This document shows positions 6,436-56,039 of a stretch of DNA of 64,000 nucleotides, piece after piece. The notes below the pieces were generated by a model that saw only the letters and a list, made by a program, of their open reading frames with translations, did not search any database and had not been told where the DNA came from. How positions within the stretch are numbered: position 1 is the first letter of the stretch; every line of letters starts with the position of its first letter. The stretch is taken from assembly GCA_034659295.1 (NCBI GenBank), contig JAYEGX010000055.1:9726-73725 (forward strand). The letters run 5' to 3'. A program made the position numbers and the translations under genes. Origin of the DNA: Candidatus Altiarchaeota archaeon. GTDB taxonomy: Archaea; Altiarchaeota; Altiarchaeia; IMC4; QMZM01.

Positions 6436-6460
6436 ATAGAAAACGTTTATTTAGATTAAC

Positions 6461-37254: not shown

Positions 37255-40164
37255 CTAAAAAACAAAATATATCCAACAATCTTGCAGCCAAGTATCTCCG
37301 ATATTCTTGACCCAGACATACCAACAGCCGTCAGTTACCTGTTCAGGATAATTTATCGGCATAATCTTTACTAAATGTCGTGTCATATAATAATAAACAC
37401 CATCATGAACGCCTTTATATGCCCATGGATCTGCAGCAATGACTTTCTGGATACTGCTATAATCACTCACTGTGGGAGGGCCGATCTCCCAGTTTTGACC
37501 TGCATATTTGGCCATCACGTGCAGGTCGCCATGGCTGTAATGTGATTGCACCGCTGCCACGACTGTCAAAGTCGGATTGCTGGAACCAGAATCTGCCCGA
37601 AACTTAAAAAGTTTTATTTCTCCCGGCCTAAATCTAAAATCTCTGTAAGTGTCGCCCTTTATCAGCGTAATGCCCGGCCTTTCCCCGTCGCCATCACCGT
37701 CACCATCCCCGCCGCCGTCGCATTCGGAGAGTGGGGTTGAACAGGAAATGGATATGTGCCCTAAGATCGTGTCCTCCGGGGAATAGAATGCCGCGTACCA
37801 GAGCGATTTCGGGGTGGGTTTTGTAACCTCCAGCATTATTCCCGTAGAACCTGCACTCACACACCGTATGTATGAATCCTCATAACCTGCCGGTTTAGGG
37901 ATCATCCAGCCCCAAACAGTCGGATTACGGCTGATTTGCTGCCAATTAACGCCGTCGAAGCGTGTGTCGCCGACAGAGTTCATATACTCGATTTCTTCCA
38001 CGGTAGGCGGGCTGCCGCGCTTTAAAACAACACACCGGGCTCCGCCCGAATTCGAGTAAGGAGTTCCTATAATCTGTATAGGATGCCCCTCGTCATTGAT
38101 ACAACAGACGAATTTATAATAAACTGGTGTGCCGCCGTCAACATACACATCACTACCACCCGGAACCGTACCACCATCATGGAAATCACCGTCCACCAAA
38201 GGAATCCCGTCATCAGGAATCACTATATCCCCGTCACCATCGCCGTCACCATCGCCGCTACCGGCCTCAACACACTCTCCTGACATCATATTAACCATAC
38301 AGCCGCCAGCAATTCCACACGGGTTCATCGTACAACTCGCTCCACCGTAATCCCCACAACCAGAGGGAGGACTACCCCCACAACTCACACAGTTATTGTG
38401 TTTATTCACGTAACAGATGCCGGGAACACCGCAGATATTATAGATGCAATCCTGATACCCGGAAGACATGGAATAGCTGCTGCACTCCGTGATCAGAGAG
38501 CAATCAATACATGTTGGTGTTGTTGTCACACCCCCAGGAGAACGAAAAGGAAAATACAATATATTAACAATATTAACCACCAAAGCCATCAGGAGCAGGA
38601 CAATAATCACGTACTTGATGGCCCTCTTCGCCTCGCTTCTTTCGTAGGGCCCAAAAGAGACAATCAAGGCAACAGCATGTACGGCGAAAAACACCGCCGC
38701 CAGAATAATTAAGATAGTGGAGAAGAGACCCAGTAACCCGCCGACATTCTGATAGCCTTCGCATCCGCTGACACAGACCGCAGTACATTGCTCCCTGGCG
38801 CTTTCATCCTCGATGCCAGCACACCAGTCAGAGCAACAGGATTCACAATCCTCCCTGCAGTTCGCATACCCCCCGCATAACTGAGCCCAAATCTCCCTAC
38901 AGGTGGCACAGCACCTCGCCTCAACCCCCCCCTCCGAAGACATACCACCCCTTCCCACAGCCTGCGCAGTAATCTCCCGGCCATGACAGATCCCAGTGCA
39001 CGAGCACTTATATAGGAGGATTTCATCCAGCGGAGATGTTGTCGTAGTCACGAATTCCTCCACAACAACAGTCACAGTATCTCTATCAGTTTTACCTGCA
39101 TCAGAGCCTGAGCCGGTGAAAGTCAAGGATACGATAAATGTTCCCTCAGTGGCGTACTGGTGGCTGGTGCTTTCCCCTGAACCAGAGCTGCCGTCCCCGA
39201 AATCCCACCCGAAGCTGCCTACACCAATAGATTCGCTGGCATCGAAGTAGGCTGTGCCCCCAACACCTATGGTGACTGATTTTTTGTTCACATTTGTTGA
39301 GGTCTCACCCACGTAGGCTATCGCCTTGAAGTCAACGACCTCAACAGTCACAGTATCTATATCATTTTTACCTGCATCATCTCCTTCGCCGGTGAAAGTC
39401 AATGTCACAGTAAAGGTTCCCTCAGCAGGGAAGGTATGTGTTGGAGCGACTTCTGTATTGTCTACCGAACCGTCGCCGTCGAAATCCCACCCAAATCTGC
39501 CTTCACCACGAGAGTCGCTGGCATCGAAGTACACCACATCACCTATGTCAACGGTAACGCTCTTATAGTTAACATCTGATGCCGTCTTACCCACCTTGGC
39601 CACGGCATTAAACTCCGGCTCTTCAGGCTTCACCTCCTCTAAACGACAGTCGCAGTTACAGCCGTTTTCACAGCCGATGCTTACGTGGATGTGGGAGTGA
39701 TATGTTTTAATCCTGCCGCCCCCGCAATAGGCAAGCGCATCCCTTATCTCCTGCAGACATACCCTGTTTTTAAAATCCACTGCATAGGATTTACCTACAC
39801 ACGCCCTACCACCGTAGTGGCATGAATGTTCAACATGAGCGCATGGAGGCCGGCTCCATGAGCCGGGAACACACCTATCCATCCCCGCTGAATCAGAGAC
39901 CGAGCTTATAACCTTCGCCCTCTCAGGGAGGTAGCCCTCCATGCAGTCCAGAAGCGTTACAAGCGCAGGGGACATGTCACTGCATTGAGCGCCTGGGTTG
40001 CGTATATCATACTCACAAAGGATATACCCATGGCATGATGCTCCTGGCTGAGGGGAGCCGCTGCATTGAGCACTTGCAGAGTTGGAGAAAACGAAAAAGG
40101 ATATAATCATTAAACAGCTTATTCCCTTCAGGCCACGCCCAGCTCCCTTAGTTTCTGAATCCAT
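37255..40164 (-). CDS. Large surface protein: signal peptide, N-terminal domain with a peptidase M15 (VanY/Hedgehog-type) zinc motif, two PKD domains, Cys-rich regions, a mid-protein TM hairpin, (GD)n linkers, and a C-terminal beta-rich domain
   Basis: 969 aa. M15-like SCHYGGRACVGKSYAVDF (SxHxxGxAxD) with a downstream YHSHIHVS. PKD repeats ...YFDASDSRGEGRFGWDFDGDG... and ...YFDASESIGVGSFGWDFGDGS.... TM hairpin LLGLFSTILIILAAVFFAVHAVALIVSF / YVIIVLLLMALVVNIVNILYF. Linkers GDGDGDGDGD. Confidence 0.6.
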   Translation of the reverse strand: MDSETKGAGRGLKGISCLMIISFFVFSNSASAQCSGSPQPGASCHGYILCEYDIRNPGAQCSDMSPALVTLLDCMEGYLPERAKVISSVSDSAGMDRCVPGSWSRPPCAHVEHSCHYGGRACVGKSYAVDFKNRVCLQEIRDALAYCGGGRIKTYHSHIHVSIGCENGCNCDCRLEEVKPEEPEFNAVAKVGKTASDVNYKSVTVDIGDVVYFDASDSRGEGRFGWDFDGDGSVDNTEVAPTHTFPAEGTFTVTLTFTGEGDDAGKNDIDTVTVEVVDFKAIAYVGETSTNVNKKSVTIGVGGTAYFDASESIGVGSFGWDFGDGSSGSGESTSHQYATEGTFIVSLTFTGSGSDAGKTDRDTVTVVVEEFVTTTTSPLDEILLYKCSCTGICHGREITAQAVGRGGMSSEGGVEARCCATCREIWAQLCGGYANCREDCESCCSDWCAGIEDESAREQCTAVCVSGCEGYQNVGGLLGLFSTILIILAAVFFAVHAVALIVSFGPYERSEAKRAIKYVIIVLLLMALVVNIVNILYFPFRSPGGVTTTPTCIDCSLITECSSYSMSSGYQDCIYNICGVPGICYVNKHNNCVSCGGSPPSGCGDYGGASCTMNPCGIAGGCMVNMMSGECVEAGSGDGDGDGDGDIVIPDDGIPLVDGDFHDGGTVPGGSDVYVDGGTPVYYKFVCCINDEGHPIQIIGTPYSNSGGARCVVLKRGSPPTVEEIEYMNSVGDTRFDGVNWQQISRNPTVWGWMIPKPAGYEDSYIRCVSAGSTGIMLEVTKPTPKSLWYAAFYSPEDTILGHISISCSTPLSECDGGGDGDGDGDGERPGITLIKGDTYRDFRFRPGEIKLFKFRADSGSSNPTLTVVAAVQSHYSHGDLHVMAKYAGQNWEIGPPTVSDYSSIQKVIAADPWAYKGVHDGVYYYMTRHLVKIMPINYPEQVTDGCWYVWVKNIGDTWLQDCWIYFVF

Positions 40165-40652
40165 AGTTGAGTATCTCCTGGGACTATGAGGACGTCTTTC
40201 TCTTCATTGTTTTCTATGTAGTTAACCCGGATGTATTCCCTGAAAAGCTTGCTCTCTGTTTTCACTTCCTGCACCGAATTAAGCGGTATATCCAGGACCA
40301 CATCAAGCTCCTTGCCGATAATTCTCTTGTTGGTTAAGTACAGGCTCATGTACTTATGGGAGCGCCTCCCCAGCAGGCGACCCCTCTTGGAGGGAAACAA
40401 GACATAACCCTGGTCTATGCTCTCCAGGATTATTGACTCATCCTCGTCGGTTCTGGGGGGAATAACCTCCTTCTCAAAAGACATGAAAATCAGGTAGCTG
40501 CCGAACACCGCCAACAGCATGGCCAGAAAGCCTACCATGAACGGGAAACCAGTCCACAGGTTGTATACCAGAGCCAGAATCAACGCTATAACAAAACCCG
40601 CTATTACGCCCGTATATCCCAGAGCCCTTAAATCAGATTTATCCAATCTCAT
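40128..40652 (-). CDS. Membrane protein: 2 TM helices plus a cytoplasmic PH-like (bPH/YdbS-type) domain
   Basis: 174 aa. Two N-terminal helices, then a domain with a bacterial PH-like pattern (LYLTNKRIIG). Confidence 0.4.
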   Translation of the reverse strand: MRLDKSDLRALGYTGVIAGFVIALILALVYNLWTGFPFMVGFLAMLLAVFGSYLIFMSFEKEVIPPRTDEDESIILESIDQGYVLFPSKRGRLLGRRSHKYMSLYLTNKRIIGKELDVVLDIPLNSVQEVKTESKLFREYIRVNYIENNEEKDVLIVPGDTQLWIQKLRELGVA

Positions 40653-40703: not shown

Positions 40704-42380
40704 TCACCATATAGGACCCTTCGGGGGGCCAACCGGTTTAGGTGGTGTGATCCTATCCTTCTTGTATGTCTCAAATTCAGCCTCCTCTGCCATGTCAGCA
40801 ACGCCTGAAAGCCACGGGACCTCAAGGGCTGAGAAAGCCACTATCATCATAGCCAGCCAGTCCATCAAGCCCATAGCAAACAAAGGTGCTATAATAATCA
40901 GGAGATAACAGGCCAGACCCATGCCCACCCTGAATGCCTGCTCCCCCACCAACCCGGTGGGCATGTGCACAACAGCTAATGTGATGCCCACAATAATCAA
41001 TGCCTCAATGAATTGGGTGGCAATCCACCAACCTGTCTGGTAGAGCATTTCATTACCCAGCCTCCTGGTTAAATGCAGGGAGTTCAGGAATATGGTGAAC
41101 GGGAAGAGTATCGCCCACAATATGACCATGAAGTACCTTAACACCAGCACGGTTATGGCAAAAAGATAGAAGATTATCTGGAACAGGGCTATGAATAAGC
41201 CAGTGAAGAAGGCGATTGCCATTATGCTCAGGTACTCGTAATTCAGGGAATTAATGCACTCGGTGCACATGAACTTTTTCGCATCCTCAATATCCACTAA
41301 AGTCATTGTGTAGGCAGACAGTATGTGGGTGAAGTCTAAGAGCAGCTGCATTATGGGTATGGTCAGGATGATAAGTCCTATGGAGATAATCATCCTCAGG
41401 AGTGTTGATTTAGCCCGCGCTCTTCCCAGAGGTGAGGCTGACATGAACAATAGATAAAAGACTGTTACAGCAATGCCGAGTATGTAGAAGGGTTCGAGCA
41501 GGTGTATGAAGAAATCCAGTGTGTGGACAACAACCGGCTCGGTAAGGTTAGGTTTAAGCAGGATGAAGTATTCTATGTCATTGCATATGTCTTCCATCTT
41601 GTCCAGGACACCTATTTTTATGCCAAGGTATCCTACAAGCAATCGTCCTGAAATCTTCTTGAACTCACCCCTGAATGATTTAAAAATAGGGGTTTTAACA
41701 CTCCAGTCAGATAGTCTTAATCGAAAACTCTCCATTATACCTGAGTGGTGTATTCCTGCTGTGCTTGCGACGATACTCTGCGCCCAGAACCCTACCTCCT
41801 CGGTCGTGTGGCTTGAGGTCATTACACCCTCAATCCATGTATCGGCTGTGGTGGAGCAGTTCTCGATGTCCAAGCCCTCCCTCTCACCCTTAACAGAGGC
41901 GTAGATGTGGTGGCCGTTGTTCATGGTGAAATCAAAGTATTTGGCGGCTATATCAGAGAGGTTGTCGTTGTCTATGACTCCAGGGGTGTCGGTGTCGAAT
42001 CTACAGCCCCTCCCCTCCACCAGCGGGCTTTCCGTAAGCTCCGTATACCCCACGTCCAGACCCTTCTGGACTACAATCATAGCCCTCTCTTTCGTCTCAG
42101 TGCATACCTCCTCTACGGTGGCTTTAAGGGCATTGCAGGTGCCCCTCTGCATCAGCTCGGCGTTTTCAATGAATCGCACACAGCGACTGTCTATTCTACA
42201 TTCTCTTATGTATTCCCTGTATTCAGATGTCCCTGGTAGAAGCCTGCAGGTGCTTTGCTCCACCCCCGCAAGTTCTTCATTCCCAGGAGACGATTCCCCC
42301 AACTCTAAGGCGCTCACGCTAGCTGAAAAAAATAAGGCGAACAACGCCAGCAACACCATCCCTTTTTTTCCGTAATCCAT
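40704..42380 (-). CDS. Member 6 of the paralogous polytopic membrane family, with a large (~270-aa) extracellular N-terminal domain
   Basis: Likely start MDYGKKGMVLLALFALFFSASVSA (signal). The family core follows: LLEPFYILGIAVTVFYLLFMSASPLGRARAKSTLLRMIISIGLIILTIP...LYQTGWWIATQF. Confidence 0.55.
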   Translation of the reverse strand: MDYGKKGMVLLALFALFFSASVSALELGESSPGNEELAGVEQSTCRLLPGTSEYREYIRECRIDSRCVRFIENAELMQRGTCNALKATVEEVCTETKERAMIVVQKGLDVGYTELTESPLVEGRGCRFDTDTPGVIDNDNLSDIAAKYFDFTMNNGHHIYASVKGEREGLDIENCSTTADTWIEGVMTSSHTTEEVGFWAQSIVASTAGIHHSGIMESFRLRLSDWSVKTPIFKSFRGEFKKISGRLLVGYLGIKIGVLDKMEDICNDIEYFILLKPNLTEPVVVHTLDFFIHLLEPFYILGIAVTVFYLLFMSASPLGRARAKSTLLRMIISIGLIILTIPIMQLLLDFTHILSAYTMTLVDIEDAKKFMCTECINSLNYEYLSIMAIAFFTGLFIALFQIIFYLFAITVLVLRYFMVILWAILFPFTIFLNSLHLTRRLGNEMLYQTGWWIATQFIEALIIVGITLAVVHMPTGLVGEQAFRVGMGLACYLLIIIAPLFAMGLMDWLAMMIVAFSALEVPWLSGVADMAEEAEFETYKKDRITPPKPVGPPKGPIW

Positions 42381-42384
42381 TCTC

Positions 42385-43461
42385 TCAGTAATCCTCTGGT
42401 GGCTTGATGACAACCTCCTCCTCCTCAAAGGGTTTCCTCTCAATTGTTGTTTCACTCACTACCACAGCACCGCTGCTTAGTGGAGCGGCCTGGACTATCT
42501 CGAACATGAAAATCGACAGCCCCATCCAGTTCATAACACCCAGTATCATGAAGGGAACAGCAAACATAAAGATAAGTGATGTAGCGTATATGAACTCCAG
42601 CGGGAGATTAGGTGATATAACAGGGAGAGTCGCTACTGTCACGGAGACAATGATTAATCCCACAGCCCAGCCCAGCTGCAAAAAAATCCAGATGATAGTC
42701 TGCTCGAACATCATCTTCCCCGCGTTTCTGGTTAAGTCCCATGAATAAAAGAATATGGTTACCGGCAGGAGAACAGCCATCAACCCCGCCATGATGTATC
42801 GTATGAACAGTATCAGATACAGGGCCATTAATAGCACAGTATCCAGGAGGAATATCTCTATACCACCATACCTGTGTATGAGGGTTATTTTCACGAAGGT
42901 ATCAAAGAGATCCTGAGCAGCCGCCCGGAGCGAACCCAAGGCTATTGTTATATCAGCAAGGTTCATAATCTGAGATGTCAGGCTCCCGGAAACATAATAA
43001 AGCAACTCGACGAGTAAAGGGGATACAGATATGAGAACCAACCCGATAATCAGCTTACCAAACCATTTCTTAGCCCTTGCCCTGTTCAGCGGAGACTGTG
43101 AGACAAAGATTATATAGAACCCCGTTAACATTATGGCCGCAATATAAAAGGGCTGCATCAGGTTAATGAAGAAACCCATGAAATGCTTTATGCTCCACAT
43201 AGGTGGGTTGGCTTTTATCAGGGAGGGCATATTATCGAATACCGATAAATAAAAGTAATGGATAAGGTTAGCCGAGTATATAATAATCCCCTTCCTGGCC
43301 ATTTTCGCTGCTTCACTGGTTAACATATTGAGAACTCCGCTTAATCCTATCGAGTAACCAGTGTATCCTTTGGTTTTAGCAGCGGAGACTGGGGGGATAG
43401 AGGCTAACACTAAAAGGAGTAATACAACACCTACCACCAGATTTTTTGTTCTTGTTTTCAT
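42385..43461 (-). CDS. Paralogous polytopic membrane protein (family member 5), with a VirB6/TrbL-like topology
   Basis: Signal peptide plus 6 or more TM helices. Family motif LMQPFYIAAIMLTGFYIIFVSQSPLNRARAKKWFGKLIIGLVLISVSP...MFEQTIIWIFLQL. Confidence 0.55.
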   Translation of the reverse strand: MKTRTKNLVVGVVLLLLVLASIPPVSAAKTKGYTGYSIGLSGVLNMLTSEAAKMARKGIIIYSANLIHYFYLSVFDNMPSLIKANPPMWSIKHFMGFFINLMQPFYIAAIMLTGFYIIFVSQSPLNRARAKKWFGKLIIGLVLISVSPLLVELLYYVSGSLTSQIMNLADITIALGSLRAAAQDLFDTFVKITLIHRYGGIEIFLLDTVLLMALYLILFIRYIMAGLMAVLLPVTIFFYSWDLTRNAGKMMFEQTIIWIFLQLGWAVGLIIVSVTVATLPVISPNLPLEFIYATSLIFMFAVPFMILGVMNWMGLSIFMFEIVQAAPLSSGAVVVSETTIERKPFEEEEVVIKPPEDY

Positions 43462-44684
43462 GGTAAAAAGTCACGAAGGTGCTGTGCCCATATCAGGGGG
43501 AATATTATCAGCATCGCGTATATTGTAGCCCCAAGCACGAAATCCACGATATTGACTGTTGCAGGCATGGCCTCATAGAAGTCATGAAGCATGATTTCTG
43601 CCCCGGCAACCCCCACCACAGACCCTATTGCTCCACCGAGGAGTAAACCCCACCAATTAAGAACCTTTCCCGTCTGCAGCCCAATCTCCGCCGTAGATGG
43701 GCCTATAGCCAACACACTCATGAGGTCATACATGCCCCGGAGGTTTGTGAACGATATCTCGGCGTTCAAGACAACATGCTCTTCTATTGTGGTGCCGATA
43801 CCGACAAATACAACAATGATTAAGGCAATGAAGACCTGGAGGAATATCCACACAATCAACTGCTCCAGCAGTTTCTTGCCTATGCCCTTAAACCATGGGA
43901 GGCTGTAGAACAAAACCCCCAGGGGGAATAATACCATTAAGAGCGTGATAAGTATGTGCCTCAAACCCAGCACTATGTACGGGATGAAGGACATAGCAAA
44001 AAGCAGGGTGAGATAAGGGAGTCCAAGATCCGTATACGGTACCGCCGTCAAGGCATAAACCCAGAACAGGTTTTCGACTGCACCTCCCAGAGCAGCCTTT
44101 ACCTCCTCACCGCTTACCAGACTGAAAACAGACTCAGTCATCTCCTCAGACAACCCCAATAGCAGGTTTATTAGGGGTATGGATAGGGAGATAACAACCA
44201 TCGAAACCAGCAACCTGAGCAGGATATCCTTTGCCTTAGACCTTGATGAGGGCGATACGGGCATGAAGAGCAGATAGAATCCCACAGTTAATATAACCAG
44301 CACATAAACTGGTTGCAGTATCCTTATGAAAAACGCTATGAGCTCAAATATTAAGGCGTCGTGTGGTGAGGGATTGGACACTACCGCCACATGATAGTTG
44401 TTGGGGAATGACATGGCATACTTGGGCATGAATCCTCCATGGATTATTTTAACAACAAGAATCATTCTAAGAAAGTACCCCATGCCTTCACTCAAGAAAG
44501 TGCCGGTTTCTATTAATCCCTCGCTTTTCCAAAAGCTTTTTATATTACCCCATTCCCTTGATAAAAAGCCCTGTGAGAAAACGTTCGTGGAGAAGACTAT
44601 GATTAACAACAGAACCAATACTACCTGGTAATTCCTTTCCCATTCAATTTTCATTTTTTTTATGGTAAAAAGTTTCTGAACCAT
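43458..44684 (-). CDS. Paralogous polytopic membrane protein (family member 4)
   Basis: ILQPVYVLVILTVGFYLLFMPVSPSSRSKAKDILLRLLVSMVVISLSIP...LLEQLIVWIFLQVF. Confidence 0.55.
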   Translation of the reverse strand: MVQKLFTIKKMKIEWERNYQVVLVLLLIIVFSTNVFSQGFLSREWGNIKSFWKSEGLIETGTFLSEGMGYFLRMILVVKIIHGGFMPKYAMSFPNNYHVAVVSNPSPHDALIFELIAFFIRILQPVYVLVILTVGFYLLFMPVSPSSRSKAKDILLRLLVSMVVISLSIPLINLLLGLSEEMTESVFSLVSGEEVKAALGGAVENLFWVYALTAVPYTDLGLPYLTLLFAMSFIPYIVLGLRHILITLLMVLFPLGVLFYSLPWFKGIGKKLLEQLIVWIFLQVFIALIIVVFVGIGTTIEEHVVLNAEISFTNLRGMYDLMSVLAIGPSTAEIGLQTGKVLNWWGLLLGGAIGSVVGVAGAEIMLHDFYEAMPATVNIVDFVLGATIYAMLIIFPLIWAQHLRDFLP

Positions 44685-45622
44685 ATGAGCATCAACGCTG
44701 GAGTAAGCACGAGACTGAACACACCAACCAACAAAATCAAATCAAACCCGAAATTCCATAAAAATCCCGCAACCGAAAACTGTATATACATAAATCCCGG
44801 CTCTTTGGATATCATTGCTATTGCAGCAACAGCAACTACCACAGCATTAAATATCTGCAGGGAAGACCAGAGTATTGTCTGCTCCAACATGTTCCTGCCT
44901 ATGTTCTTGGTGAAATCGAAGGAGTACAGGAATATGGATAACGGGAGGAGTATAATCCACAAGAGAACAGCCAGATACCTTAATATAAGCATCAGATACG
45001 TCCCCCAGACAAGAAAGAAAAGAGGTAGGAAGGCGTAATACCCCAGCTCTACATTTATGAGACAAGACCACATATGCAGCTTTTTTAAACCCTCTATCAC
45101 CTTATTCAGGGTGTATGTGTAGTATGCGATATCAGCCTGTCCCAGAACAGATGAGGTGATGTTCTCTGTCATATAAAGGGTTATGGTCATTATTTGAGGA
45201 GCTAGTGATATCAAAGCCAGTGAAATAAACAGCTTCACCAGCATGGATTTCGCTTTATTCCTTCCTGAGGGGGTTGACGAAACAAGTATAAGATAAAACC
45301 CTGTTATCGATATGGCAAGCACATAGAAGGGTTGTAGAAGCGAAACAAAAAATCTTATTAAATCCAGCACTATAGGATCCTGGGGTGAGGGATTCATCAA
45401 AATAAAATCCCCCAGGTTGGCTGATAGCGCATCAAGCCCCCGGGTAGCATAGCTGGAAGCGACCCAGTAGTAAAACCATCTCTTTGCTAGATACGCAATA
45501 GTCATAGCTGAACCTTTGGCAGTTGCCTTCCCTGGTACATCTTTTGCACAAACAAAAACAACGATAGAGGATATTATCAATAACGCTGCTATGACCAGGA
45601 TGTATTTTCTCTCTTTTTTCAT
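44660..45622 (-). CDS. Paralogous polytopic membrane protein (family member 3)
   Basis: LLQPFYVLAISITGFYLILVSSTPSGRNKAKSMLVKLFISLALISLAP...MLEQTILWSSLQIF. Confidence 0.55.
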   Translation of the reverse strand: MKKERKYILVIAALLIISSIVVFVCAKDVPGKATAKGSAMTIAYLAKRWFYYWVASSYATRGLDALSANLGDFILMNPSPQDPIVLDLIRFFVSLLQPFYVLAISITGFYLILVSSTPSGRNKAKSMLVKLFISLALISLAPQIMTITLYMTENITSSVLGQADIAYYTYTLNKVIEGLKKLHMWSCLINVELGYYAFLPLFFLVWGTYLMLILRYLAVLLWIILLPLSIFLYSFDFTKNIGRNMLEQTILWSSLQIFNAVVVAVAAIAMISKEPGFMYIQFSVAGFLWNFGFDLILLVGVFSLVLTPALMLIWFRNFLP

Positions 45623-45624
45623 GG

Positions 45625-46824
45625 TTACGGAGGTAATAGTTTCTGGAAAAAGGTGAACATTAATATAGGCCCCAAGAGCAACATGAACATACTAGTCCAG
45701 GTGAATATGCTAATGAAGAAGGGCTCTCCCGGGATATCTAATGCATCCATAGCACCTCCTATGAGGGGTATATCGCTCTTATGGATTCCTATACCGTATG
45801 ATTCATACATGCTGGTTGGGACGATTGATATTCCCACAGCGATTACAACAACCGTGATGCCATAGAAAACCTGCAGGCTGCTCCATAAAAGAGTCTGCTC
45901 CAACATAGTCTTCCCGAATCCCCGGGTGAACTCAAAAGATGAGAAAAAGATGGTGAAAGGCAACAGGAGACCCCACAAAAAAACCATAAAGTATCTGAGG
46001 GTTAACATACCATGTATTCCTATAAGTATAAGCATCAACAACAACACGAAGGGTGTGGTCCACACAATCTCAATCTCCACCAGCTCGATTGCATGCAAAG
46101 TTTTATGTAGTTGCTTAAGGTTTTTACTGGATTTTAGGTTACCAAAAAATCCGGTTAACGTGCCAACACCACCATAAAAAGCATTGGGGGCGTTTGCCAA
46201 CATAACCAGGTTCCTTATGACACATATCATCGAGGAAAACTCTGATGCTGCTATCGAAACATAAGCCTTAGGGTTTAACTCATCCCCTATAATCTCACCG
46301 GTAGAGTTCTCCGTCAACGATAAAAGCACCCCCACCAGCTCTGAAGAGAATGAAACCAGAACCATGCTAATAATAAGCTTAGCCAGCAACGACTTAGCCC
46401 TAGCCCGACCCAGAGGGGAGCCGGGTATGAATATTATATAAAACCCGGCCATTATTATAGCCAGTATATACACAGGATAAAGCAAACCCACGAAATACCT
46501 GAGAAGGTTAAGAGCTGCCGGGTTCTTGAGGTCGGGATTCAACAAGATGTATTTAGCTAGATTATTCTCTATGTCTTCTGCGATATTAGTCATCGAAGAC
46601 CATACCAAACGCATGTAAAGCACCCTCTGAGCTAGAGCAATATTTTCACCACTAGTAAAAAGGCCGAGAACTCCTTTCGCCAGAGGGTTTTGCTCTACCT
46701 TGCCGAAAATGTTAGTGGGGTGTATAAGAGAACTCTTCCCAGAAGAAACTGCAAACGGTATGATATTCAGGACTAATACTGAAACAATCAAGACCGCAAG
46801 CAGTTTATTCCCCCCTGAATCCAT
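45625..46824 (-). CDS. Paralogous polytopic membrane protein (family member 2)
   Basis: LLYPVYILAIIMAGFYIIFIPGSPLGRARAKSLLAKLIISMVLVSFSS...MLEQTLLWSSLQVF. Confidence 0.55.
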   Translation of the reverse strand: MDSGGNKLLAVLIVSVLVLNIIPFAVSSGKSSLIHPTNIFGKVEQNPLAKGVLGLFTSGENIALAQRVLYMRLVWSSMTNIAEDIENNLAKYILLNPDLKNPAALNLLRYFVGLLYPVYILAIIMAGFYIIFIPGSPLGRARAKSLLAKLIISMVLVSFSSELVGVLLSLTENSTGEIIGDELNPKAYVSIAASEFSSMICVIRNLVMLANAPNAFYGGVGTLTGFFGNLKSSKNLKQLHKTLHAIELVEIEIVWTTPFVLLLMLILIGIHGMLTLRYFMVFLWGLLLPFTIFFSSFEFTRGFGKTMLEQTLLWSSLQVFYGITVVVIAVGISIVPTSMYESYGIGIHKSDIPLIGGAMDALDIPGEPFFISIFTWTSMFMLLLGPILMFTFFQKLLPP

Positions 46825-49800
46825 TTATCTCTTACCTCTTAAATCCTCCAACCAGCTTTCAAGCTCCATCCTGCCCACCCCAAGGAATTTATATGAGAAC
46901 ACAGCCACAACCAGAATCGCCAACAAAACAAGAATCTCAGGGGAAAGCAGCGGCGTGTAAATCTCCACAACATTAAACCGCACAACCTTATTCAGGGAGC
47001 GTCCTGTTGGGTCAACATCACCATGGTGTTTAATCTCCAGAGAGAATGTTTTATGGGCATTTAATGTGAACTCAGCGTATCCATACTCTCCAGTAACCAC
47101 AAAATATTCACCGTCTTCCTCGCTTAAACCATTAGGGCTTAGACTGGAGAGGTCAACATCCTTGCTCCACACATCAACCCTCTTACCTGACTCACCCCGG
47201 TTTTTATCAATATTATATAGCCATAACTTAACAGTCACCTCTGAGCCAGGCGATAACACCACACCCTCCGGCTCAACCACATAAAACAAATCAACAGCAT
47301 CCCTGATTTTGAACTCATCAGCATCGCTGAGATTAAGCTCCCTGTGCTCATAGAAGGTATCTATAACTAGTTTACCGTCCTCAAACTCATCCCGGGGTAT
47401 TATGTCATAATCCTCCTCCCCTGAATAGAGGTGCCTGTAGGGCTCATAGTTTGTTCTAAAGTAGAGCGTGTAGTAATGTCCTCCAGGAAACACAGCATCT
47501 GAGACGTTGTGCTTGAAGTCGACAACAATTAATTTATTAAACCCGCCCATGGATTTAGCAGCCTCCAGACCATACCAGCTCATATCCTCAATATTCTTAT
47601 TGTCGAAGATAACAAAATCATACCCCTTGCCCACATTCACGTTGTCCACGATAGATTTGTGGTTAACAGCCTCTATCTTAATGCTTTTCATCTGGGGTCG
47701 GACATCATAGCATACCTTCTCCCAATGAACCTCACACGCCTCTTTTGAGATTGTATAGACTTCATTTCCACCGTCATAGTATTCTACTGTGAGTTCTATC
47801 TCAATGCTCTTTTTGTCGTCTATCCCAAACTCTAGACACAGCTGGTTATCTGGATCAGAGGTAGCACCCTTAGGTATATATTGTATCACACCAGAACCCT
47901 GCGGGAGTTTCAGTGCGTATCCGTTTCGTCCCATAAGCCTTTCATCAACGGTTGGCATGCCGCTAACAGCCTCCCACGGACCCAGCCCGGTATCGAATCC
48001 CATCTCGAAGTCGCCGTTGACTATAACGCTGCCCTCATCCTCATGGAATGTTCTGTTGGATGTGCACGGGTTATCATATCTCTTATCCGGGGCACAGACG
48101 CAGTCATCTTTCTCAATCAAGCGGTCACCGTAGCAGGCCATATACAATGCATCCGATCTGAATTCATCAAAACAGTAGACCCGATTGTGCTCAAACTCGC
48201 ATTCAAGGAGACCTATCTCGTTAAGGTATCTGGTGCAGAGGTTGTCTATGGCCTGCTTGTTGTCCTGGATTGAGCCATCCACACAAATCCTTTCCACGAC
48301 AGGGTCATCAGAGTAATGGGTACATAGGAGTTCCTCGATGTCATCCCTGTATTTTAGGGGGTTCGTGTTAATACACAGTGGCCGCATTATGTCCTCCGGA
48401 TCGCATTCACATACTGGGGGAGGGTCACAAAATGTCTGACACTGCTCCGGGAATTCGTATTTCTCGAACTCATAACCGTAGCGGCTGCCTAAACCATAAG
48501 AGATGCTGCCTCCAGAGCTTGATTTCTTTTTTATTGTTGAATGCGAGATGGGGCTTATAATCTCACGGTAGTCTGCATCAGAGTCTCCTACAAAAAGGGT
48601 CATCCCCCTGAACAAATCCGGCTGTATGGTGAAGTTGATGAACCCGTAGGTGGTTATGAAATCCCCCTCCTTGTATCTTGTAGCGTCCAAGACCAGATGA
48701 TGGTATATGGGCGAATCCTTCCAGCCGCTTGCGCAGCCGTTGTATATCCAGGGCACCTTCTCCCAGTTATACACATGATATTCACTCTCTATCGTGCTTG
48801 TCTCCTGCTCATGATACCAGGACAGGATTTCCTCCCTCCACTGGTGCCAGCACTGATTACAGATAGCACAGTAAGGACAGCAGCAGGTGCAGGGACATAT
48901 AAGCATAATCTTCTCGCTAACTCCGCCGCACCAATCACAACAATACCCAACATTCTTATCAGCTAGAAGGAACTGGTAGTAGGGAGTAATTGCATGACAG
49001 TCACCACAGGGGCAGTCGCATTCCGGGCAGGTTTGGCACTCGTATCTGTCGCAGGCTGTATAAAACCGGTCCTCCCTGATGCCTGTTAGATAATCCTGTT
49101 TAGCTGTGAACTTTAGCTTCATGTATGAACTATTCACTACCTCGGATCTAAAAACATCAGAGTCCATGGTAAGCCTGGACCACCTCCCCAACTTGGACTT
49201 ATAGTATCTAACCGCCGTAATGTCCGAGCAACCGTCCGGGTCTTTACACTCGTAGGGCTCTGAAGCTATCCAGTAGGCGCAAGTCAGTTGGAAGGGTATG
49301 TTGGCTGTGTCGATTATCCTAAATGTACCGCCTTTAGACATCCAGATGTTTTCGCTTATGTTATAGATCTCCATCCGCTGCGGTTCCCCAAAAGGCAGCA
49401 TGCTACCAGAAGATAACCCAACCTTGAATTTTGTGCTGGCTTTAGCCCCACCCTCCAGTATATACTTGGTGAGACATAACGGCCCAGGAGCCTCCTGCTT
49501 CTGCTCTATGATGGTGTAGGGGTGGGCTTCATATTGCTGCGAACCCCCAATACAACTTGAACAATCCGTGCAAACAGACAACAGCTTCCACTTACAGTAT
49601 ATGTTATCCGAGCCCCAGATGCGCTCGTACCATGGAACCTCAAACTTCTCGAAGCCTGCCTGCCCATAGCCCACATCATTGCACTCCTCCGGGGGGCAGT
49701 CCCTCATAAGCTGGTATTGTGTGATAACCTCACATGGTATAGGATTCATCTGGTCAGGACCACCCCAGCAGTCGCCGTGTGGAGGTACTAACTGATTAGG

Positions 49801-51474
49801 CAGGCATTCAGGCGCCTCTTCTTCATCAGACTTGCATTCATCGTCCACGCCACGATAAAGCTTGCAGGGGCCTGTCTGCAGGGTACCGGGAGGATCATCC
49901 TCTGAATCGAAACCAGAGCATAAATCAAAGGGTGGAGCCTCACCATCACAATGCTCGTATTGTGTGGCATCATCGTCCATGGGATCAAAGGGATCGCATT
50001 CCTCTAACAGCTCACATGGGGTCCCATGCCGGCAGCTCCAGTCACATGCATCCGTCCTGTCCTGCCCGGAACCCACATACCTATCTGTATCAACCCCCTC
50101 CGCATAACCCCACGCGCCGCATTTAACTGGACCAGTCACCGCTATCAGGGGAGAGAGCATGAAAAACCTGACCCAGAGACCATGCCACGCCTTCGTTATA
50201 TCCTCCAGAGGAGGTCCCATAATGGTTCCAAGTATCACCTCCCCATCAGGCCCCTTAAACGTAACAGCGCTCTTGTTCGGCATCTCGTTGATGTACACAA
50301 AGACATCATTCCAGTTTTTCTGGTCCCGGATGTATAACTCATCGACTGAAAGCAGGTTAGCATTCTCTGTGAAAGAATACATCATATACGGCAGCTCATA
50401 GCAGTAGCTGTCATCCCTTAAGCCTGTTTTATAGCAGTAGAGTCTCTCGGACTCATCCATACCCCCAAGAGACCGGATGTAGTGCTTAGCCCAGGCCTCA
50501 AAAAATGTGACATAAACCTCATCCGCCCCAAGGAAGGTGTGTATGTTGTAGAAGGTTGCTGGTTCATCAGGCAGAGAATCATCACCTGATAAATCCGCTA
50601 AAGAAGCCGCTCCATCCATACTATGGTAGTGCTCGACAAGCGCCTTATACAATAAATCATTAACCAAAGTCCACGTATGGTTTGAGGCACCCCCATACGC
50701 CTCCAATATAAAACAACGTTTTTCAGCGTCCATAATCCAGTACTTCACCTGGTTCTCTCCGGTGAAATCCTCATAAGGCTGGAATTCACAGACCAGGGAT
50801 TCCTCATTCCACACGCATTTCTTGGTTTTAGAGCAAGCGTATTCTGTAGCGTATTCACTGCACCTGTAGGATGGCTTAGAGGCTGCGACCAAAAACCGGG
50901 AGGGGTTTATCACAAGCTCCATCTCCTGATCTTCACTTTCACCCCGCCCCAGATCACCTGTCCTGGTGCATCTGGCGATGGGGGTGGAGGAGTAGCCGAA
51001 TGCGTAGGAATCCTCCCGCTCGTATTGTCTCAGAATCCTGTCCTGGCTGGAAATGAAGGCATAGTCTTTTTCATCAACACTGCTGCCTTCATCCAACACC
51101 TCACATTCATCTAAATCCAACAACAGGGTCTTAAAGCAGTAATATCTGTTTCCGCCTTCTGTTTTCACATACACTTCAGGTTTTATGGTAATATTCGCCT
51201 CAGGGGTTCCATCGTTTGTTACATTAATGCTTCCGTTGTGATACAGGTATGCGTCCGCTATACCAGCGAATCCCAGGTTCTCATAATCCGGTGGTTCACC
51301 ATCTGATAGAGGCAGGTAGGGCACCTGATGACAGTTTGTATCCCCCCAATCACAGTCCTCAGCCTCGCTATAGGGCCCATAGCTTATGCCGCAGAGATCC
51401 TCCTCCTGGGCGGTTACAACGCTGAAAGAAAACAGGAACAATAAAGCTGCAGCATACAGGGGGAAGGATTTCAT
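46825..51474 (-). CDS. Giant (1549 aa) Cys-rich secreted protein with a C-terminal TM anchor. Adhesin or structural surface protein; first gene of the minus-strand cluster.
   Basis: Signal peptide MKSFPLYAAALLFLFSFSVVTAQ. Cys-rich throughout (e.g. CPCTCCCPYCAICNQCW, CDWCGG), with many N-x-S/T sites. C-terminal LLSPEILVLLAILVVAVFSYKF plus a charged tail. Its stop abuts the start of the next gene (46824/46825). Confidence 0.6.
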   Translation of the reverse strand: MKSFPLYAAALLFLFSFSVVTAQEEDLCGISYGPYSEAEDCDWGDTNCHQVPYLPLSDGEPPDYENLGFAGIADAYLYHNGSINVTNDGTPEANITIKPEVYVKTEGGNRYYCFKTLLLDLDECEVLDEGSSVDEKDYAFISSQDRILRQYEREDSYAFGYSSTPIARCTRTGDLGRGESEDQEMELVINPSRFLVAASKPSYRCSEYATEYACSKTKKCVWNEESLVCEFQPYEDFTGENQVKYWIMDAEKRCFILEAYGGASNHTWTLVNDLLYKALVEHYHSMDGAASLADLSGDDSLPDEPATFYNIHTFLGADEVYVTFFEAWAKHYIRSLGGMDESERLYCYKTGLRDDSYCYELPYMMYSFTENANLLSVDELYIRDQKNWNDVFVYINEMPNKSAVTFKGPDGEVILGTIMGPPLEDITKAWHGLWVRFFMLSPLIAVTGPVKCGAWGYAEGVDTDRYVGSGQDRTDACDWSCRHGTPCELLEECDPFDPMDDDATQYEHCDGEAPPFDLCSGFDSEDDPPGTLQTGPCKLYRGVDDECKSDEEEAPECLPNQLVPPHGDCWGGPDQMNPIPCEVITQYQLMRDCPPEECNDVGYGQAGFEKFEVPWYERIWGSDNIYCKWKLLSVCTDCSSCIGGSQQYEAHPYTIIEQKQEAPGPLCLTKYILEGGAKASTKFKVGLSSGSMLPFGEPQRMEIYNISENIWMSKGGTFRIIDTANIPFQLTCAYWIASEPYECKDPDGCSDITAVRYYKSKLGRWSRLTMDSDVFRSEVVNSSYMKLKFTAKQDYLTGIREDRFYTACDRYECQTCPECDCPCGDCHAITPYYQFLLADKNVGYCCDWCGGVSEKIMLICPCTCCCPYCAICNQCWHQWREEILSWYHEQETSTIESEYHVYNWEKVPWIYNGCASGWKDSPIYHHLVLDATRYKEGDFITTYGFINFTIQPDLFRGMTLFVGDSDADYREIISPISHSTIKKKSSSGGSISYGLGSRYGYEFEKYEFPEQCQTFCDPPPVCECDPEDIMRPLCINTNPLKYRDDIEELLCTHYSDDPVVERICVDGSIQDNKQAIDNLCTRYLNEIGLLECEFEHNRVYCFDEFRSDALYMACYGDRLIEKDDCVCAPDKRYDNPCTSNRTFHEDEGSVIVNGDFEMGFDTGLGPWEAVSGMPTVDERLMGRNGYALKLPQGSGVIQYIPKGATSDPDNQLCLEFGIDDKKSIEIELTVEYYDGGNEVYTISKEACEVHWEKVCYDVRPQMKSIKIEAVNHKSIVDNVNVGKGYDFVIFDNKNIEDMSWYGLEAAKSMGGFNKLIVVDFKHNVSDAVFPGGHYYTLYFRTNYEPYRHLYSGEEDYDIIPRDEFEDGKLVIDTFYEHRELNLSDADEFKIRDAVDLFYVVEPEGVVLSPGSEVTVKLWLYNIDKNRGESGKRVDVWSKDVDLSSLSPNGLSEEDGEYFVVTGEYGYAEFTLNAHKTFSLEIKHHGDVDPTGRSLNKVVRFNVVEIYTPLLSPEILVLLAILVVAVFSYKFLGVGRMELESWLEDLRGKR

Positions 51475-55100: not shown

Positions 55101-56031
55101 AGCATCATTTGCTGAAGGCGATACAATTGAGTTTCGTGGTACGGTAGGGGGCGGAACTCCTCCCTATACCCTCGAATGGGGTTCCAGTATAGATGGAGTC
55201 ATAGGTACTGAATCTGGTTTCTACTATGATGAATTATCTCAGGGAACGCATACCATTACTTTAACTGTAACAGACAGTAGCAGTCCTCAGAAAACAGGAG
55301 GTGCTACAGTGGATATAACAATAACTGAGCCGGAGTGTAGAGCAGTAATAGAAAATGGAGACCATGATGCTAAAATCGATGTCGTCTTCATTAGAGCATT
55401 TGACGCACAACCGGATGCGTTACCGCCTAATTTCGAAAATATGATAGACTCGGCAAAAATTGATTTTATTCACACAGTCCCTATCAGAGATAATACAGAT
55501 AAATTCAACTACTATTACTACACAAAAAAGGGCAGCGTGTATGCGGGTTCTAATGGTCTTTGCGCTGGGAGTTCTCCTCCCGGCTATATTACATACTGCA
55601 GTTTCGCAGACACAACCGCATACCTGCACAAAGAAACATGTAGGGACTGTTCGCATACGTCTGCAACTCTTGATCCCCCCATGCCGGGAAGCAGCTTCAC
55701 TGTCACAGATAATTTTCATAAGCATAAAACCTTCACTCATGAGGCGGGACATGCAATATTCAATTTAAGAGATGAATACTATGACCTGCTTCCAATCCAC
55801 CGGGAGCTTTCTTCAAACCCTAATATATGGTCAAGCCAGGCCAACTGTGAGGCAGATAGAACCTCTGAAGGCTGGACGGAAGCATGTGAGCAGATATGCG
55901 ATGCTAGTGGAACAAATTGTGTGGATTATTGGAGGCTGGATTATGATTGCATTATGAGAGTGCATATGAACGTGAATTTCTGTCCGGCATGCAGTAGGAG
56001 GATTAGTTGGGTATTTACTCTCTTTAATTAG
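52141..56031 (+). CDS. Giant (1296 aa) multidomain cell-wall-hydrolase-like surface protein: Amidase_3 (N-acetylmuramoyl-L-alanine amidase), PKD, a mid-protein TM hairpin, 2x PKD, SLT lytic-transglycosylase domain, PKD/Ig-like, and a peptidase M64-like HExxH metalloprotease domain
   Basis: Amidase_3 region [18 protein letters not shown]...[10 protein letters not shown]...TETWY...[12 protein letters not shown] region [11 protein letters not shown]...[17 protein letters not shown]...[12 protein letters not shown]64-like region [10 protein letters not shown]...[17 protein letters not shown] hairpin [28 protein letters not shown] / [18 protein letters not shown]. Confidence 0.7.
53750..54265 (+). 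repeat. Near-identical (~97%) tandem duplication (2 x 258 bp), each unit encoding one PKD domain
   Basis: ttaa(g/a)agcgtatattgatgctga(c/a)ccgacctccggacccccaccacttgaggtttcc... occurs twice (53750 and 54008) with only a handful of substitutions. Confidence 0.8.
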
Positions 56032-56039
56032 GGGTGTGT

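What the first reader, a model, noticed from the sequence alone, without database searches (positions are those of the whole stretch)
40704..46824. Five to six tandem paralogs of a polytopic membrane protein with VirB6/TrbL-like topology
Consecutive genes on the minus strand each encode a signal peptide, a periplasmic or extracellular segment, and a 6-8-helix TM core. They share a strikingly conserved block: LxP(F/V)YxLxIxxTGFYLLF, then SPxxRA(R/K)AK, then LIxSxxLIS, then a helix-rich region ending MLEQTxxWxxLQxF. The sixth member (40704-42380) adds a ~270-aa N-terminal extracellular domain. Tandem arrays of VirB6-like paralogs are known from Rickettsiales type IV systems (rvhB6a-e) and give an architectural analogy. 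Sequence homology to VirB6 is not established here. Such an array in an archaeon, next to murein hydrolases, is unusual.
Basis: seen in the sequence. Interest (0 to 1): 0.85.

Follow-up and report, generated by a model that had tools for sequence, protein, structure and literature searches.

The report
Five VirB6-like membrane proteins, Altiarchaeota
An uncultured archaeon (Altiarchaeota) carries a conserved set of five related membrane proteins whose fold matches VirB6, the five-copy core of bacterial type IV secretion machines, next to cell-wall-cutting enzymes anchored by pilin-like hairpins, which points to an undescribed surface apparatus aimed at bacteria.

Summary
The window comes from a Candidatus Altiarchaeota MAG.

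- Foldseek's top five hits are all TrwI chains.
- hhalign against 13 VirB6 proteins gives 79% probability and P 1.6e-5, against a null score of 15 +/- 2.6.
- The first helical hairpin of each paralog matches Pfam T4SS_pilin weakly, as reported for CedA and VirB6.

The set of five is old and fixed. Each gene position forms its own orthogroup across seven Altiarchaeota loci, and a distant Altiarchaeales lineage also has exactly five. Solved VirB6 is a pentamer, so a heteropentamer is my leading inference.

The same operons encode pilin-hairpin proteins fused to SLT, M23, Amidase_3 or PKD domains.

No VirB4 ATPase lies in the window or within about 10 kb of the array in any locus. Function is inferred, not shown. 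I found no published description.

The parts
45625..46824 (-). Paralog 1 (399 aa), VirB6-like membrane protein with an N-terminal pilin-like hairpin and a ~40-aa insertion in the loop after the second core helix
44660..45622 (-). Paralog 2 (320 aa), the minimal core of the family
43458..44684 (-). Paralog 3 (408 aa; the true start may be the second Met, near 44654), with extra C-terminal helices
   Evidence: Its ortholog P0003 carries a precomputed weak PF19590 TrbL_3 hit. Orthogroup p3, bootstrap 82/100.
42385..43461 (-). Paralog 4 (358 aa), with an acidic C-terminal tail
   Evidence: Pfam T4SS_pilin E 7e-5, 23.3 bits, on aa 107-154. Orthogroup p4, bootstrap 91/100.
40704..42380 (-). Paralog 5 (558 aa; the ORF extends to GTG 42455), with a ~260-aa exposed N-terminal domain of unknown fold ahead of the core
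   Evidence: No Pfam hit for the N-terminal domain. Orthogroup p5, bootstrap 96/100.
46825..51474 (-). First gene of the operon: 1549-aa secreted protein with 71 cysteines, an N-terminal signal-like segment and one C-terminal membrane helix
   Evidence: No family hit. A giant gene (1315-2394 aa) sits at this position in the other Altiarchaeota loci. BLAST shows homology along the whole length to L001-L003 and only partial matches to L007, L009 and L011.
40128..40652 (-). 174-aa protein: two membrane helices plus a probably cytoplasmic domain with weak PH-like (bPH_3) matches
   Evidence: Orthologs at the same position in L001, L002, L007, L009 and L011 (36-96% identity), with the same weak bPH_3 hits.
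37255..40164 (-). 969-aa protein: signal-like segment, Cys-rich domain, two PKD domains, a pilin-like two-helix hairpin (aa 472-542, loop SFGPYERSEAKR) and a Cys-rich C-terminal domain
   Evidence: PKD_4 E 2e-19; T4SS_pilin E 1.9e-3 on aa 478-535. NCBIfam pilin-like conjugal transfer protein E 4.5e-5. Proteins at the same position elsewhere pass the T4SS_pilin threshold and carry SLT (L009) or Peptidase_M23 (L011).
52141..56031 (+). Divergently transcribed 1296-aa protein: signal peptide, Amidase_3, PKD, central pilin-like hairpin (aa 447-525), two PKD, SLT, a further PKD domain, and a C-terminal HExxH domain
   Evidence: Pfam. Hairpin found by hydropathy. The hairpin matches the 111-aa T4SS_pilin protein that occupies the same divergent position in L007 (37% identity over 68 aa, E 1.5e-8). 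That L007 protein passes the Pfam threshold (30.2 bits). Weak Peptidase_M64 hit.
56034..56810 (+). 258-aa membrane-anchored protein, possibly part of the cluster
   Evidence: Signal-like segment plus a C-terminal membrane helix. Weak match (E 4.5e-6) to the C-terminus of the gene that follows the cluster in L009. Membership is uncertain.

Best explanation
The five genes encode divergent homologs of VirB6, the polytopic inner-membrane subunit that forms the pentameric base of the type IV secretion stalk and serves as the pilus-assembly platform. As reported for CedA and VirB6, each begins with a VirB2-pilin-like helical hairpin.

The five copies arose before the sampled Altiarchaeota lineages split and are kept as a fixed, ordered, co-translated set. 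I infer that one copy of each assembles into a heteropentameric membrane platform, the heteromeric counterpart of the VirB6 homopentamer.

The same locus encodes proteins built on the same kind of pilin-like hairpin. These proteins expose murein amidase, lytic transglycosylase, M23 peptidase, PKD and protease-like domains on both sides of the hairpin. I infer that the hairpins dock on, or are assembled by, the VirB6-like platform. The result would be a chromosomal, domesticated, T4SS-derived surface apparatus that displays or deploys cell-wall-cutting enzymes. Archaea are not known to make murein, so the likely target is bacterial cell wall: attachment to, attack on, or feeding on bacteria.

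Status of each step:
- Shown: paralogy, conservation of five, the VirB6-like fold, weak sequence-profile homology, the pilin-like hairpins, the hydrolase domains, and operon structure.
- Inferred: heteropentamer, docking of hairpin proteins, the target, and the energy source (no VirB4 nearby; it may be encoded elsewhere or not needed).
For: Fold:
- Foldseek top five hits are all TrwI chains, probability 0.99-1.0.
- The models used no templates and are confident.

Sequence:
- TrwI is the best, though non-significant, PDB sequence hit for the family profile.
- hhalign against five VirB6 proteins: P 6e-4. Against 13: probability 79%, P 1.6e-5, 164 columns in the same register, with the conserved Pro and Thr of the two families aligned.
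- Null scores are 15.0 +/- 1.7 and 15.0 +/- 2.6 against observed 35.1 and 46.9; 0 of 100 shuffles reach the observed score.
- A precomputed weak TrbL_3 hit exists on an ortholog.

Hairpin:
- 41 of 72 family members match PF18895 T4SS_pilin (best E 4.7e-7).
- An HMM built only from the paralog hairpins finds, among 1109 ORFs, only the bona fide T4SS_pilin proteins (E 2e-4 to 0.09).
- Beltran et al. 2023 (PMC9905601) report that the N-terminus of CedA/VirB6 is homologous to the pilin.

Five-fold set:
- Exactly five tandem members in every complete locus.
- Five orthogroups with congruent trees (bootstrap 74-96/100).
- A distant Altiarchaeales lineage also has five.
- VirB6 is a pentamer (PMC12624023).

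Context:
- T4SS_pilin+SLT, T4SS_pilin+M23 and a small 111-aa pilin sit in orthologous operons, all above the Pfam threshold.
- The amidase/SLT protein has a central hairpin that matches that small pilin.
- Gene junctions are tight.
Against: - No family member reaches a curated threshold for TrbL/VirB6 in Pfam or NCBIfam.
- VirB4, the one ubiquitous T4SS component, is absent from the 64-kb window and from about 10 kb either side of the array in about ten loci.
- No VirB3, VirB5, VirB8, coupling protein or relaxase was recognised.
- The heteropentamer rests on gene number and conservation only; no multimer model or co-evolution analysis could be run.
- Hairpin proteins with 400-800-aa domains on both sides are unlikely to pack into a conventional VirB2 pilus.
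- The hydrolases might serve nutrient scavenging rather than cell-cell interaction.
- Some Altiarchaeota have a double membrane. Whether these enzymes would then sit in a periplasm or reach the surface is unknown.
Confidence: 0.55

Rival explanations
1. A complete, working T4SS-type translocation machine, like the archaeal Ced/Ted DNA-import systems or a bacteria-killing T4SS. The VirB4 ATPase and other parts would be encoded elsewhere in the genome. The five VirB6-like proteins form the channel and pilus platform, small pilins polymerise, and the hydrolases act like VirB1 to breach a bacterial partner's wall for DNA or effector transfer.
For: VirB6-like fold and profile match. A bona fide small T4SS_pilin gene sits in the L007 operon. 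SLT and M23 hydrolases are classic VirB1/PrgK-type T4SS accessories. In Sulfolobus, cedB is not adjacent to cedA (my own knowledge; PMC9905601 lists the components).
Against: No VirB4-like P-loop protein in the window or in any fetched locus. No relaxase, coupling protein, or VirB3/5/8 was recognised. No small pilin gene was detected in the window itself. The cluster is vertically inherited and chromosomal, not part of a mobile element.
Confidence: 0.2
2. A lineage-specific membrane scaffold or permease unrelated by descent to T4SS. The five proteins anchor a cell-surface enzyme complex that degrades detrital peptidoglycan and other polymers for food and perhaps take up the products. The resemblance to VirB6 would be convergent or a helical-bundle artefact.
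For: No curated TrbL/VirB6 hit. Structural scores are moderate. The window also encodes large secreted glycoside hydrolases and esterases. NCBI named one distant member 'ABC transporter permease'.
Against: No transporter or permease family matches any of 72 members. Two VirB6-class structures (TrwI and DotA) are among the top three of 48,164 chains, with by far the longest alignments. hhalign is far above null and improves with a broader VirB6 profile. The hairpin matches T4SS_pilin independently of those results.
Confidence: 0.12
3. An envelope or appendage biogenesis module of double-membraned Altiarchaeota. The five proteins would export or anchor the giant Cys-rich surface proteins, or appendages such as hami, and the hydrolases would be incidental cargo.
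For: A giant secreted protein is always the first gene of the operon. All family members that carry a name in the databases are Altiarchaeota. How hami are anchored and assembled is unknown (PMC4460559).
Against: The giant proteins share only short or partial similarity with those of the more distant loci. The published hamus subunit is a different, 97-kDa S-layer-like protein. Murein-specific enzymes are consistently built on the cluster's own hairpin module, which argues that they are core components rather than incidental.
Confidence: 0.1

Closest known systems
VirB6/TrwI (R388) and the TrbL/VirB6 family of bacterial type IV secretion systems
   Same: Best structural match for two paralogs. 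Profile-profile match at 79% probability over 164 columns, with the conserved Pro and Thr aligned. Polytopic, N-terminus outside, a large exposed helical loop after the second helix, and short positively charged loops that would face the cytoplasm. A pilin-like first hairpin. Five genes against a homopentamer.
   Different: No curated-threshold sequence match. Five distinct paralogs rather than one gene. Archaeal and chromosomal. No adjacent VirB4, B3, B5, B8, B9 or B10.
Rickettsiales Rvh T4SS with five tandem VirB6 paralogs (RvhB6a-e)
   Same: Five tandem, divergent VirB6-type genes conserved across a lineage. Many carry long flanking extensions (674-1154 aa in Rickettsia; up to 2012 aa in distant Altiarchaeota members).
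   Different: RvhB6 proteins hit PF04610 directly and sit in a full T4SS with VirB4, B8-B11 and D4. The Altiarchaeota set is an independent duplication with no other recognisable T4SS core parts nearby.
Archaeal Ced/Ted DNA-import systems (CedA/TedA VirB6-like, CedA1/TedC pilin, CedB/TedB VirB4)
   Same: Domesticated chromosomal T4SS derivatives in archaea. The VirB6-like protein has an N-terminus homologous to the pilin. Sequences are very divergent and detectable only by profile or structure (PMC9905601).
   Different: Ced/Ted have a single VirB6-like gene, a VirB4 ATPase, and no murein hydrolases. No direct comparison with CedA or TedA sequences was possible here.
Patescibacteria (CPR) T4SS loci with tandem arrays of T4SS_pilin/VirB2 genes
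   Same: The same Pfam pilin family (PF18895). Tandem arrays of 2-11 divergent (~25% identity) hairpin genes in organisms thought to live on other cells (PMC12102498).
   Different: CPR arrays are small pilins, usually near virB4. Here the tandem genes are 320-558-aa VirB6-like proteins, and the pilin hairpins are fused to enzymes.
Large extracellular lytic-transglycosylase proteins of Woesearchaeota/Pacearchaeota (DPANN)
   Same: Archaeal proteins with murein-specific hydrolase domains, proposed to bind or attack bacterial walls (PMC8204110, PMC9723730).
   Different: They are not reported with a VirB6-like array or pilin-hairpin anchoring, and they belong to different phyla.

Membership tests
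VirB6/TrbL (T4SS inner-membrane stalk subunit) | Three-dimensional fold like solved VirB6 (TrwI) or its T4BSS counterpart DotA | tested here: met
VirB6/TrbL (T4SS inner-membrane stalk subunit) | Sequence match to the curated family profile (PF04610 TrbL, or TrbL_2/TrbL_3) at the gathering threshold | tested here: not met
   No TrbL-type hit at E<=0.1 in 72 members, or at E<=1 in the five window proteins. None in NCBIfam. Only a precomputed weak TrbL_3 hit on ortholog P0003, which I could not reproduce at E<=1.
VirB6/TrbL (T4SS inner-membrane stalk subunit) | Profile-profile homology to bona fide VirB6 proteins | tested here: inconclusive
   hhalign probability 79.2%, P 1.6e-5, against 13 plasmid VirB6 proteins. 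Score 46.9 against a null of 15.0 +/- 2.6, with 0 of 100 shuffles reaching it. Suggestive, but below the usual >95% standard, and the VirB6 profile is small.
VirB6/TrbL (T4SS inner-membrane stalk subunit) | Polytopic topology: N-terminus outside, about five or more membrane helices, large exposed loop after the second helix | tested here: met
   Hydropathy and charge distribution. AF2 helices. No dedicated topology predictor was available.
VirB6/TrbL (T4SS inner-membrane stalk subunit) | Essential invariant Trp of the VirB6 domain | tested here: inconclusive
   The family has its own invariant Trp (W252 of paralog 2). By my reading of the hhalign alignments, the VirB6 invariant Trp (W199 of TrwI) aligns to a non-Trp column, and the family's Trp aligns to a Tyr.
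VirB6/TrbL (T4SS inner-membrane stalk subunit) | Genomic association with a VirB4 ATPase | tested here: not met
   Every ORF of 400 aa or more in the window was scanned against Pfam, and none is VirB4-like. A Walker-A scan of the window and ten loci finds only MoxR, RFC and a CDC48-like AAA. Whole genomes could not be searched.
VirB6/TrbL (T4SS inner-membrane stalk subunit) | Pentameric assembly | not testable with these tools
   Only monomer prediction was available. Five conserved paralogs per locus fit a heteropentamer but do not show one.
T4SS_pilin / VirB2 (PF18895, PF04956) | Small two-helix hairpin protein that matches the pilin profile at threshold | tested here: not met
   The paralogs are 320-558 aa with additional membrane helices. 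Their hairpins score 14-23 bits against a cutoff of 26.6. They contain a pilin-like domain but are not pilins. True members in related operons score 29-40 bits.
Ced/Ted archaeal DNA-import system | VirB6-like CedA/TedA together with a CedA1/TedC pilin and a CedB/TedB VirB4-like ATPase | tested here: inconclusive
   VirB6-like and pilin-like parts are present. No ATPase is nearby. No CedA or TedA sequences were available for direct comparison.
Membrane transporter / ABC permease (the name NCBI gave one distant member) | Match to a transporter or permease profile or fold | tested here: not met

The most novel reading that the evidence does not exclude
Altiarchaeota carry a previously unrecognised T4SS-derived machine. 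A heteropentamer of five VirB6-like proteins would assemble pilin-hairpin subunits decorated with murein amidase, transglycosylase and peptidase domains into a surface structure that breaches bacterial cell walls. This would be an archaeal contact-dependent weapon or interdomain conduit. It would run without a dedicated adjacent VirB4 and would show that VirB6 pentamers can be heteromeric, which would also explain the five RvhB6 paralogs of Rickettsia.
Probability: 0.2. Interest if true: 0.9.

Novelty: new variant of a known kind. Interest (0 to 1): 0.78.

Why it matters
VirB6 is the least understood core part of type IV secretion, and why some lineages keep several paralogs is an open question. 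A set of exactly five distinct VirB6-like genes, matching the five-fold symmetry of the solved stalk, gives a direct and testable model: one copy of each per complex.

It would also extend T4SS-derived machinery to another archaeal phylum beyond Ced/Ted.

It links that machinery to murein-specific enzymes in organisms not known to make murein. That points to physical interaction between Altiarchaeota, which are abundant subsurface carbon fixers, and bacteria.

Pilin hairpins used as a module to display enzymes on both sides would be a new piece of protein architecture.

All of these genes are currently annotated only as 'hypothetical protein'.

Tried and rejected
- Curated profiles. Pfam and NCBIfam scans gave no TrbL/VirB6 or transporter hit.
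- PDB sequence search. The five-sequence profile found nothing. The 72-sequence profile gave TrwI only at E 1.6.
- Word-indexed homolog search.
The narrower ones returned only Altiarchaeota or unlabelled archaeal MAG loci.
- AlphaFold database. The afdb50 fold library was unavailable, so relatives such as CedA, TedA or PrgH could not be ranked.
- Contig extension. Look-ups of ThyX, the GH protein and IleRS, meant to extend the view beyond the window, found no record. The remaining ~18 kb of the contig was not seen.
- Mobile elements. tblastn of paralog 2 against plasmids and phages gave no match, so there is no sign of a mobile-element source.
- Metallopeptidase guess. I suspected that the Cys-rich N-terminal domain of the 969-aa protein is a LAS-type (M15/Hedgehog-like) murein peptidase, because of the motif SCHYGG..AVDF..HSHIHVS. 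Neither PDB nor Pfam supported this, so I dropped it.
- Unassigned domains. The giant protein as a whole, its C-terminal segment, the N-terminal domain of paralog 5 and the C-terminal domain of the 969-aa protein gave no family assignment.
- 'Long pilin' reading. I rejected the idea that the five proteins are filament subunits, because they have several further membrane helices.
- 'Conjugative element' reading. I rejected this because the cluster is flanked by housekeeping genes, has no relaxase or integrase, and its five gene trees are congruent.
- Literature. Searches found no paper linking Altiarchaeota to T4SS, VirB6 or murein hydrolases.

Full report
**What is there.** Five consecutive minus-strand ORFs occupy 40704-46824, encoding 399, 320, 408, 358 and 558 aa. 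They are clear paralogs. Pairwise BLASTP gives E 1e-22 to 1e-43 at 27-36% identity. There are five genes, not six; the long one with the ~260-aa N-terminal domain is the fifth. Each starts with a hydrophobic signal-like segment, followed by an exposed stretch and a multi-helix membrane core.

**The operon.** The five genes sit in a tightly coupled operon, with junctions of 0, 2, -25, -4, 4, 51 and -37 nt. In transcription order it contains:
- a 1549-aa Cys-rich secreted protein with one C-terminal membrane helix;
- the five paralogs;
- a 174-aa protein with two membrane helices and a weak PH-like domain;
- a 969-aa protein with PKD domains and a central two-helix hairpin.

A 1296-aa Amidase_3 + PKD + SLT protein is transcribed divergently.

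**Organism.** The window is chromosomal DNA of a Candidatus Altiarchaeota MAG. Archaeal housekeeping genes flank the operon. No tRNA or Rfam match was found in the window.

**How wide the family is.** An exhaustive profile search of 1.84 billion representative proteins found 432 representatives at E<=1e-3, 311 at E<=1e-10 and 104 at E<=1e-30. Many carry C-terminal extensions, reaching 2012 aa in total. Every member that carries a name in the source databases is from Altiarchaeota, and nearly all are called 'hypothetical protein'. tblastn found no relative on plasmids or phages.

**What the proteins resemble.** No curated Pfam or NCBIfam model for TrbL/VirB6, or for any transporter, matches. 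Three independent lines nevertheless converge on VirB6.
1. *Structure.* Template-free AlphaFold models of paralog 2 (pLDDT 86.5) and paralog 1 (pLDDT 80.7) were compared with the PDB.
   - Most other hits are short generic helical bundles.
   - Foldseek's top five hits are all TrwI chains at probability 0.99-1.0, although TM-scores are only 0.33-0.42.
2. *Sequence.* TrwI is the best, non-significant, PDB sequence hit of the family profile.
   - hhalign against five plasmid VirB6 proteins gave P 6e-4.
   - Against 13, it rose to 79% probability, P 1.6e-5, over 164 columns in the same register. The conserved Pro (LFPxT against LGPIF) and Thr (FxFT against xxxT) of the two families align.
   - A null that reverses and permutes 22-column segments gave 15.0 +/- 1.7 and 15.0 +/- 2.6, against observed 35.1 and 46.9. 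None of 100 shuffles reached the observed score.
3. *The first hairpin.* 41 of 72 members match Pfam T4SS_pilin (best E 4.7e-7).
   - An HMM built only from the paralog hairpins retrieves, among 1109 ORFs, only the operons' bona fide T4SS_pilin proteins.
   - This is what Beltran et al. 2023 reported for CedA and VirB6, whose N-terminus is homologous to the cognate pilin.

I therefore treat the proteins as divergent VirB6-like homologs, at roughly 0.75 confidence. They are not members of the curated family at threshold.

**The number five.** Every complete locus I fetched has exactly five tandem members. In a neighbour-joining tree of 34 proteins from seven loci, each gene position forms its own clade (bootstrap 74-96/100), and the internal branching is the same in all five clades. 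Identity is about 45% within a position and 25-30% between positions. So the five-fold duplication predates the split of these lineages, and all five copies and their order have been kept.

A distant Altiarchaeales lineage (L019/L021) again has exactly five members (411, 475, 1347, 365 and 499 aa in L021), next to a 1168-aa protein with a T4SS_pilin hairpin.

Solved VirB6 is a pentamer at the base of the five-fold stalk and is thought to be the pilin recruitment and assembly platform. Five non-redundant, co-translated paralogs therefore suggest a heteropentamer. Rickettsia also keeps five RvhB6 paralogs with long extensions. The heteropentamer is an inference; I could not run a multimer prediction.

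**The neighbours belong to the same system.**
- *Downstream position.* Other Altiarchaeota encode T4SS_pilin (40.4 bits) + SLT, T4SS_pilin (35.3 bits) + Peptidase_M23, or a 224-aa T4SS_pilin protein where the window has the 969-aa gene. All score above the 26.6-bit threshold. The window protein has the same hairpin, with loop SFGPYERSEAKR, flanked by PKD and Cys-rich domains.
- *Divergent position.* One locus (L007) has a plain 111-aa T4SS_pilin gene (30.2 bits) at the divergent upstream position. In the window that position holds the 1296-aa amidase/SLT protein. Its central two-helix hairpin (aa 447-525) matches that small pilin (37% identity, E 1.5e-8).

So the pilin-like hairpin is a conserved core onto which exposed enzyme and adhesion domains have been added at both ends. 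With a signal peptide and a hairpin, both flanking domains should face outward. The 174-aa protein is conserved at its position in all five loci that extend that far.

**What is missing.** No VirB4-like ATPase is present in the 64-kb window. Every ORF of 400 aa or more was scanned against Pfam and none is VirB4-like, and none lies within about 10 kb of the array in about ten loci. No VirB3, VirB5, VirB8, coupling protein or relaxase was recognised. Whole genomes, and the remaining ~18 kb of this contig, could not be searched.

**Most likely mechanism.** The five proteins form a VirB6-like heteromeric platform in the cytoplasmic membrane. Pilin-like hairpin proteins dock at, or are assembled from, this platform and expose murein amidase, lytic transglycosylase, M23 peptidase, PKD and protease-like domains. 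These enzymes are specific for bacterial murein, which archaea are not known to make. That is established knowledge, not tested here. The apparatus is therefore probably directed at bacterial cell walls, for attachment, attack or feeding. Whether it is a static display platform or a dynamic machine powered by an ATPase encoded elsewhere remains open.

**Rivals.** I considered three:
- a full Ced/Ted-like or bacteria-killing T4SS with VirB4 encoded elsewhere;
- an unrelated scaffold or permease for murein scavenging;
- an envelope or appendage biogenesis module for the giant surface proteins.

**Novelty.** Tandem VirB6 paralogs are known in Rickettsiales. VirB6-like proteins are known in archaea (CedA/TedA). 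Tandem T4SS_pilin arrays are known in Patescibacteria. Large archaeal lytic transglycosylases have been noted in DPANN. What I did not find in the searchable literature is this combination:
- a five-paralog VirB6-like array found, so far, only in Altiarchaeota;
- pilin hairpins fused to murein hydrolases;
- no adjacent VirB4.

I class it as a new variant of a known kind.

Noticed in passing
window 52141-56031 (+): The 1296-aa murein hydrolase is interrupted by a two-helix pilin-like hairpin (aa 447-525), so Amidase_3 lies on one side and SLT on the other. The C-terminus has an HExxH motif (THEAGHAIF) with a weak Peptidase_M64 match. The plain 111-aa pilin of locus L007 occupies the same divergent position.
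   Followed up: partly
window 37255-40164 (-), aa 29-190: The Cys-rich N-terminal domain has the motif SCHYGG..AVDF..HSHIHVS, which recalls LAS-type (M15/Hedgehog-like) zinc peptidases. Neither PDB nor Pfam searches supported this. One distant family member (P0033) has a weak Hedgehog-signal-domain hit.
   Followed up: partly
window 46825-51474 (-): The 1549-aa secreted protein has 71 cysteines, including an extremely CxxC-dense stretch around aa 805-880, and no detectable family. A giant gene sits at this position in every locus, but the more distant ones share only short or partial similarity with it.
   Followed up: partly
P0118, P0107, P0142, P0150 and others (Altiarchaeota MAGs); L021 9971-14014: Distant members of the VirB6-like family carry C-terminal extensions of 300-1700 aa, rich in Gly/Ala/Met at the start and with no known domain. 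This parallels the long flanks of Rickettsia RvhB6 proteins.
   Followed up: no
L021 3715-7221: In the distant Altiarchaeales lineage, the large hairpin protein upstream of the five genes combines five MopE-type putative metal-binding motifs with a T4SS_pilin hairpin and a PKD domain. It has no recognisable murein hydrolase.
   Followed up: no
window 40128-40652 (-): A 174-aa protein with two membrane helices and a probably cytoplasmic domain gives repeated weak PH-like (bPH_3, GRAM, Vps36) hits in three lineages. It could be an adaptor to a cytoplasmic partner.
   Followed up: partly
window 9983-11257 (-): A 424-aa ORF carries a Cas12f1-like TNB domain (TnpB-type transposon nuclease). A 340-aa ORF overlaps it on the opposite strand.
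   Followed up: no
window 2476-8608 (+): A 1319-aa protein combines GHL15 and GH5 cellulase domains. It is followed by a 715-aa double esterase/PHB-depolymerase-like protein, which suggests a capacity to degrade extracellular polymers.
   Followed up: no
window 62202-63979 (-): Two adjacent short MetE-like ORFs (324 and 268 aa) each have cobalamin-independent methionine synthase domains.
   Followed up: no
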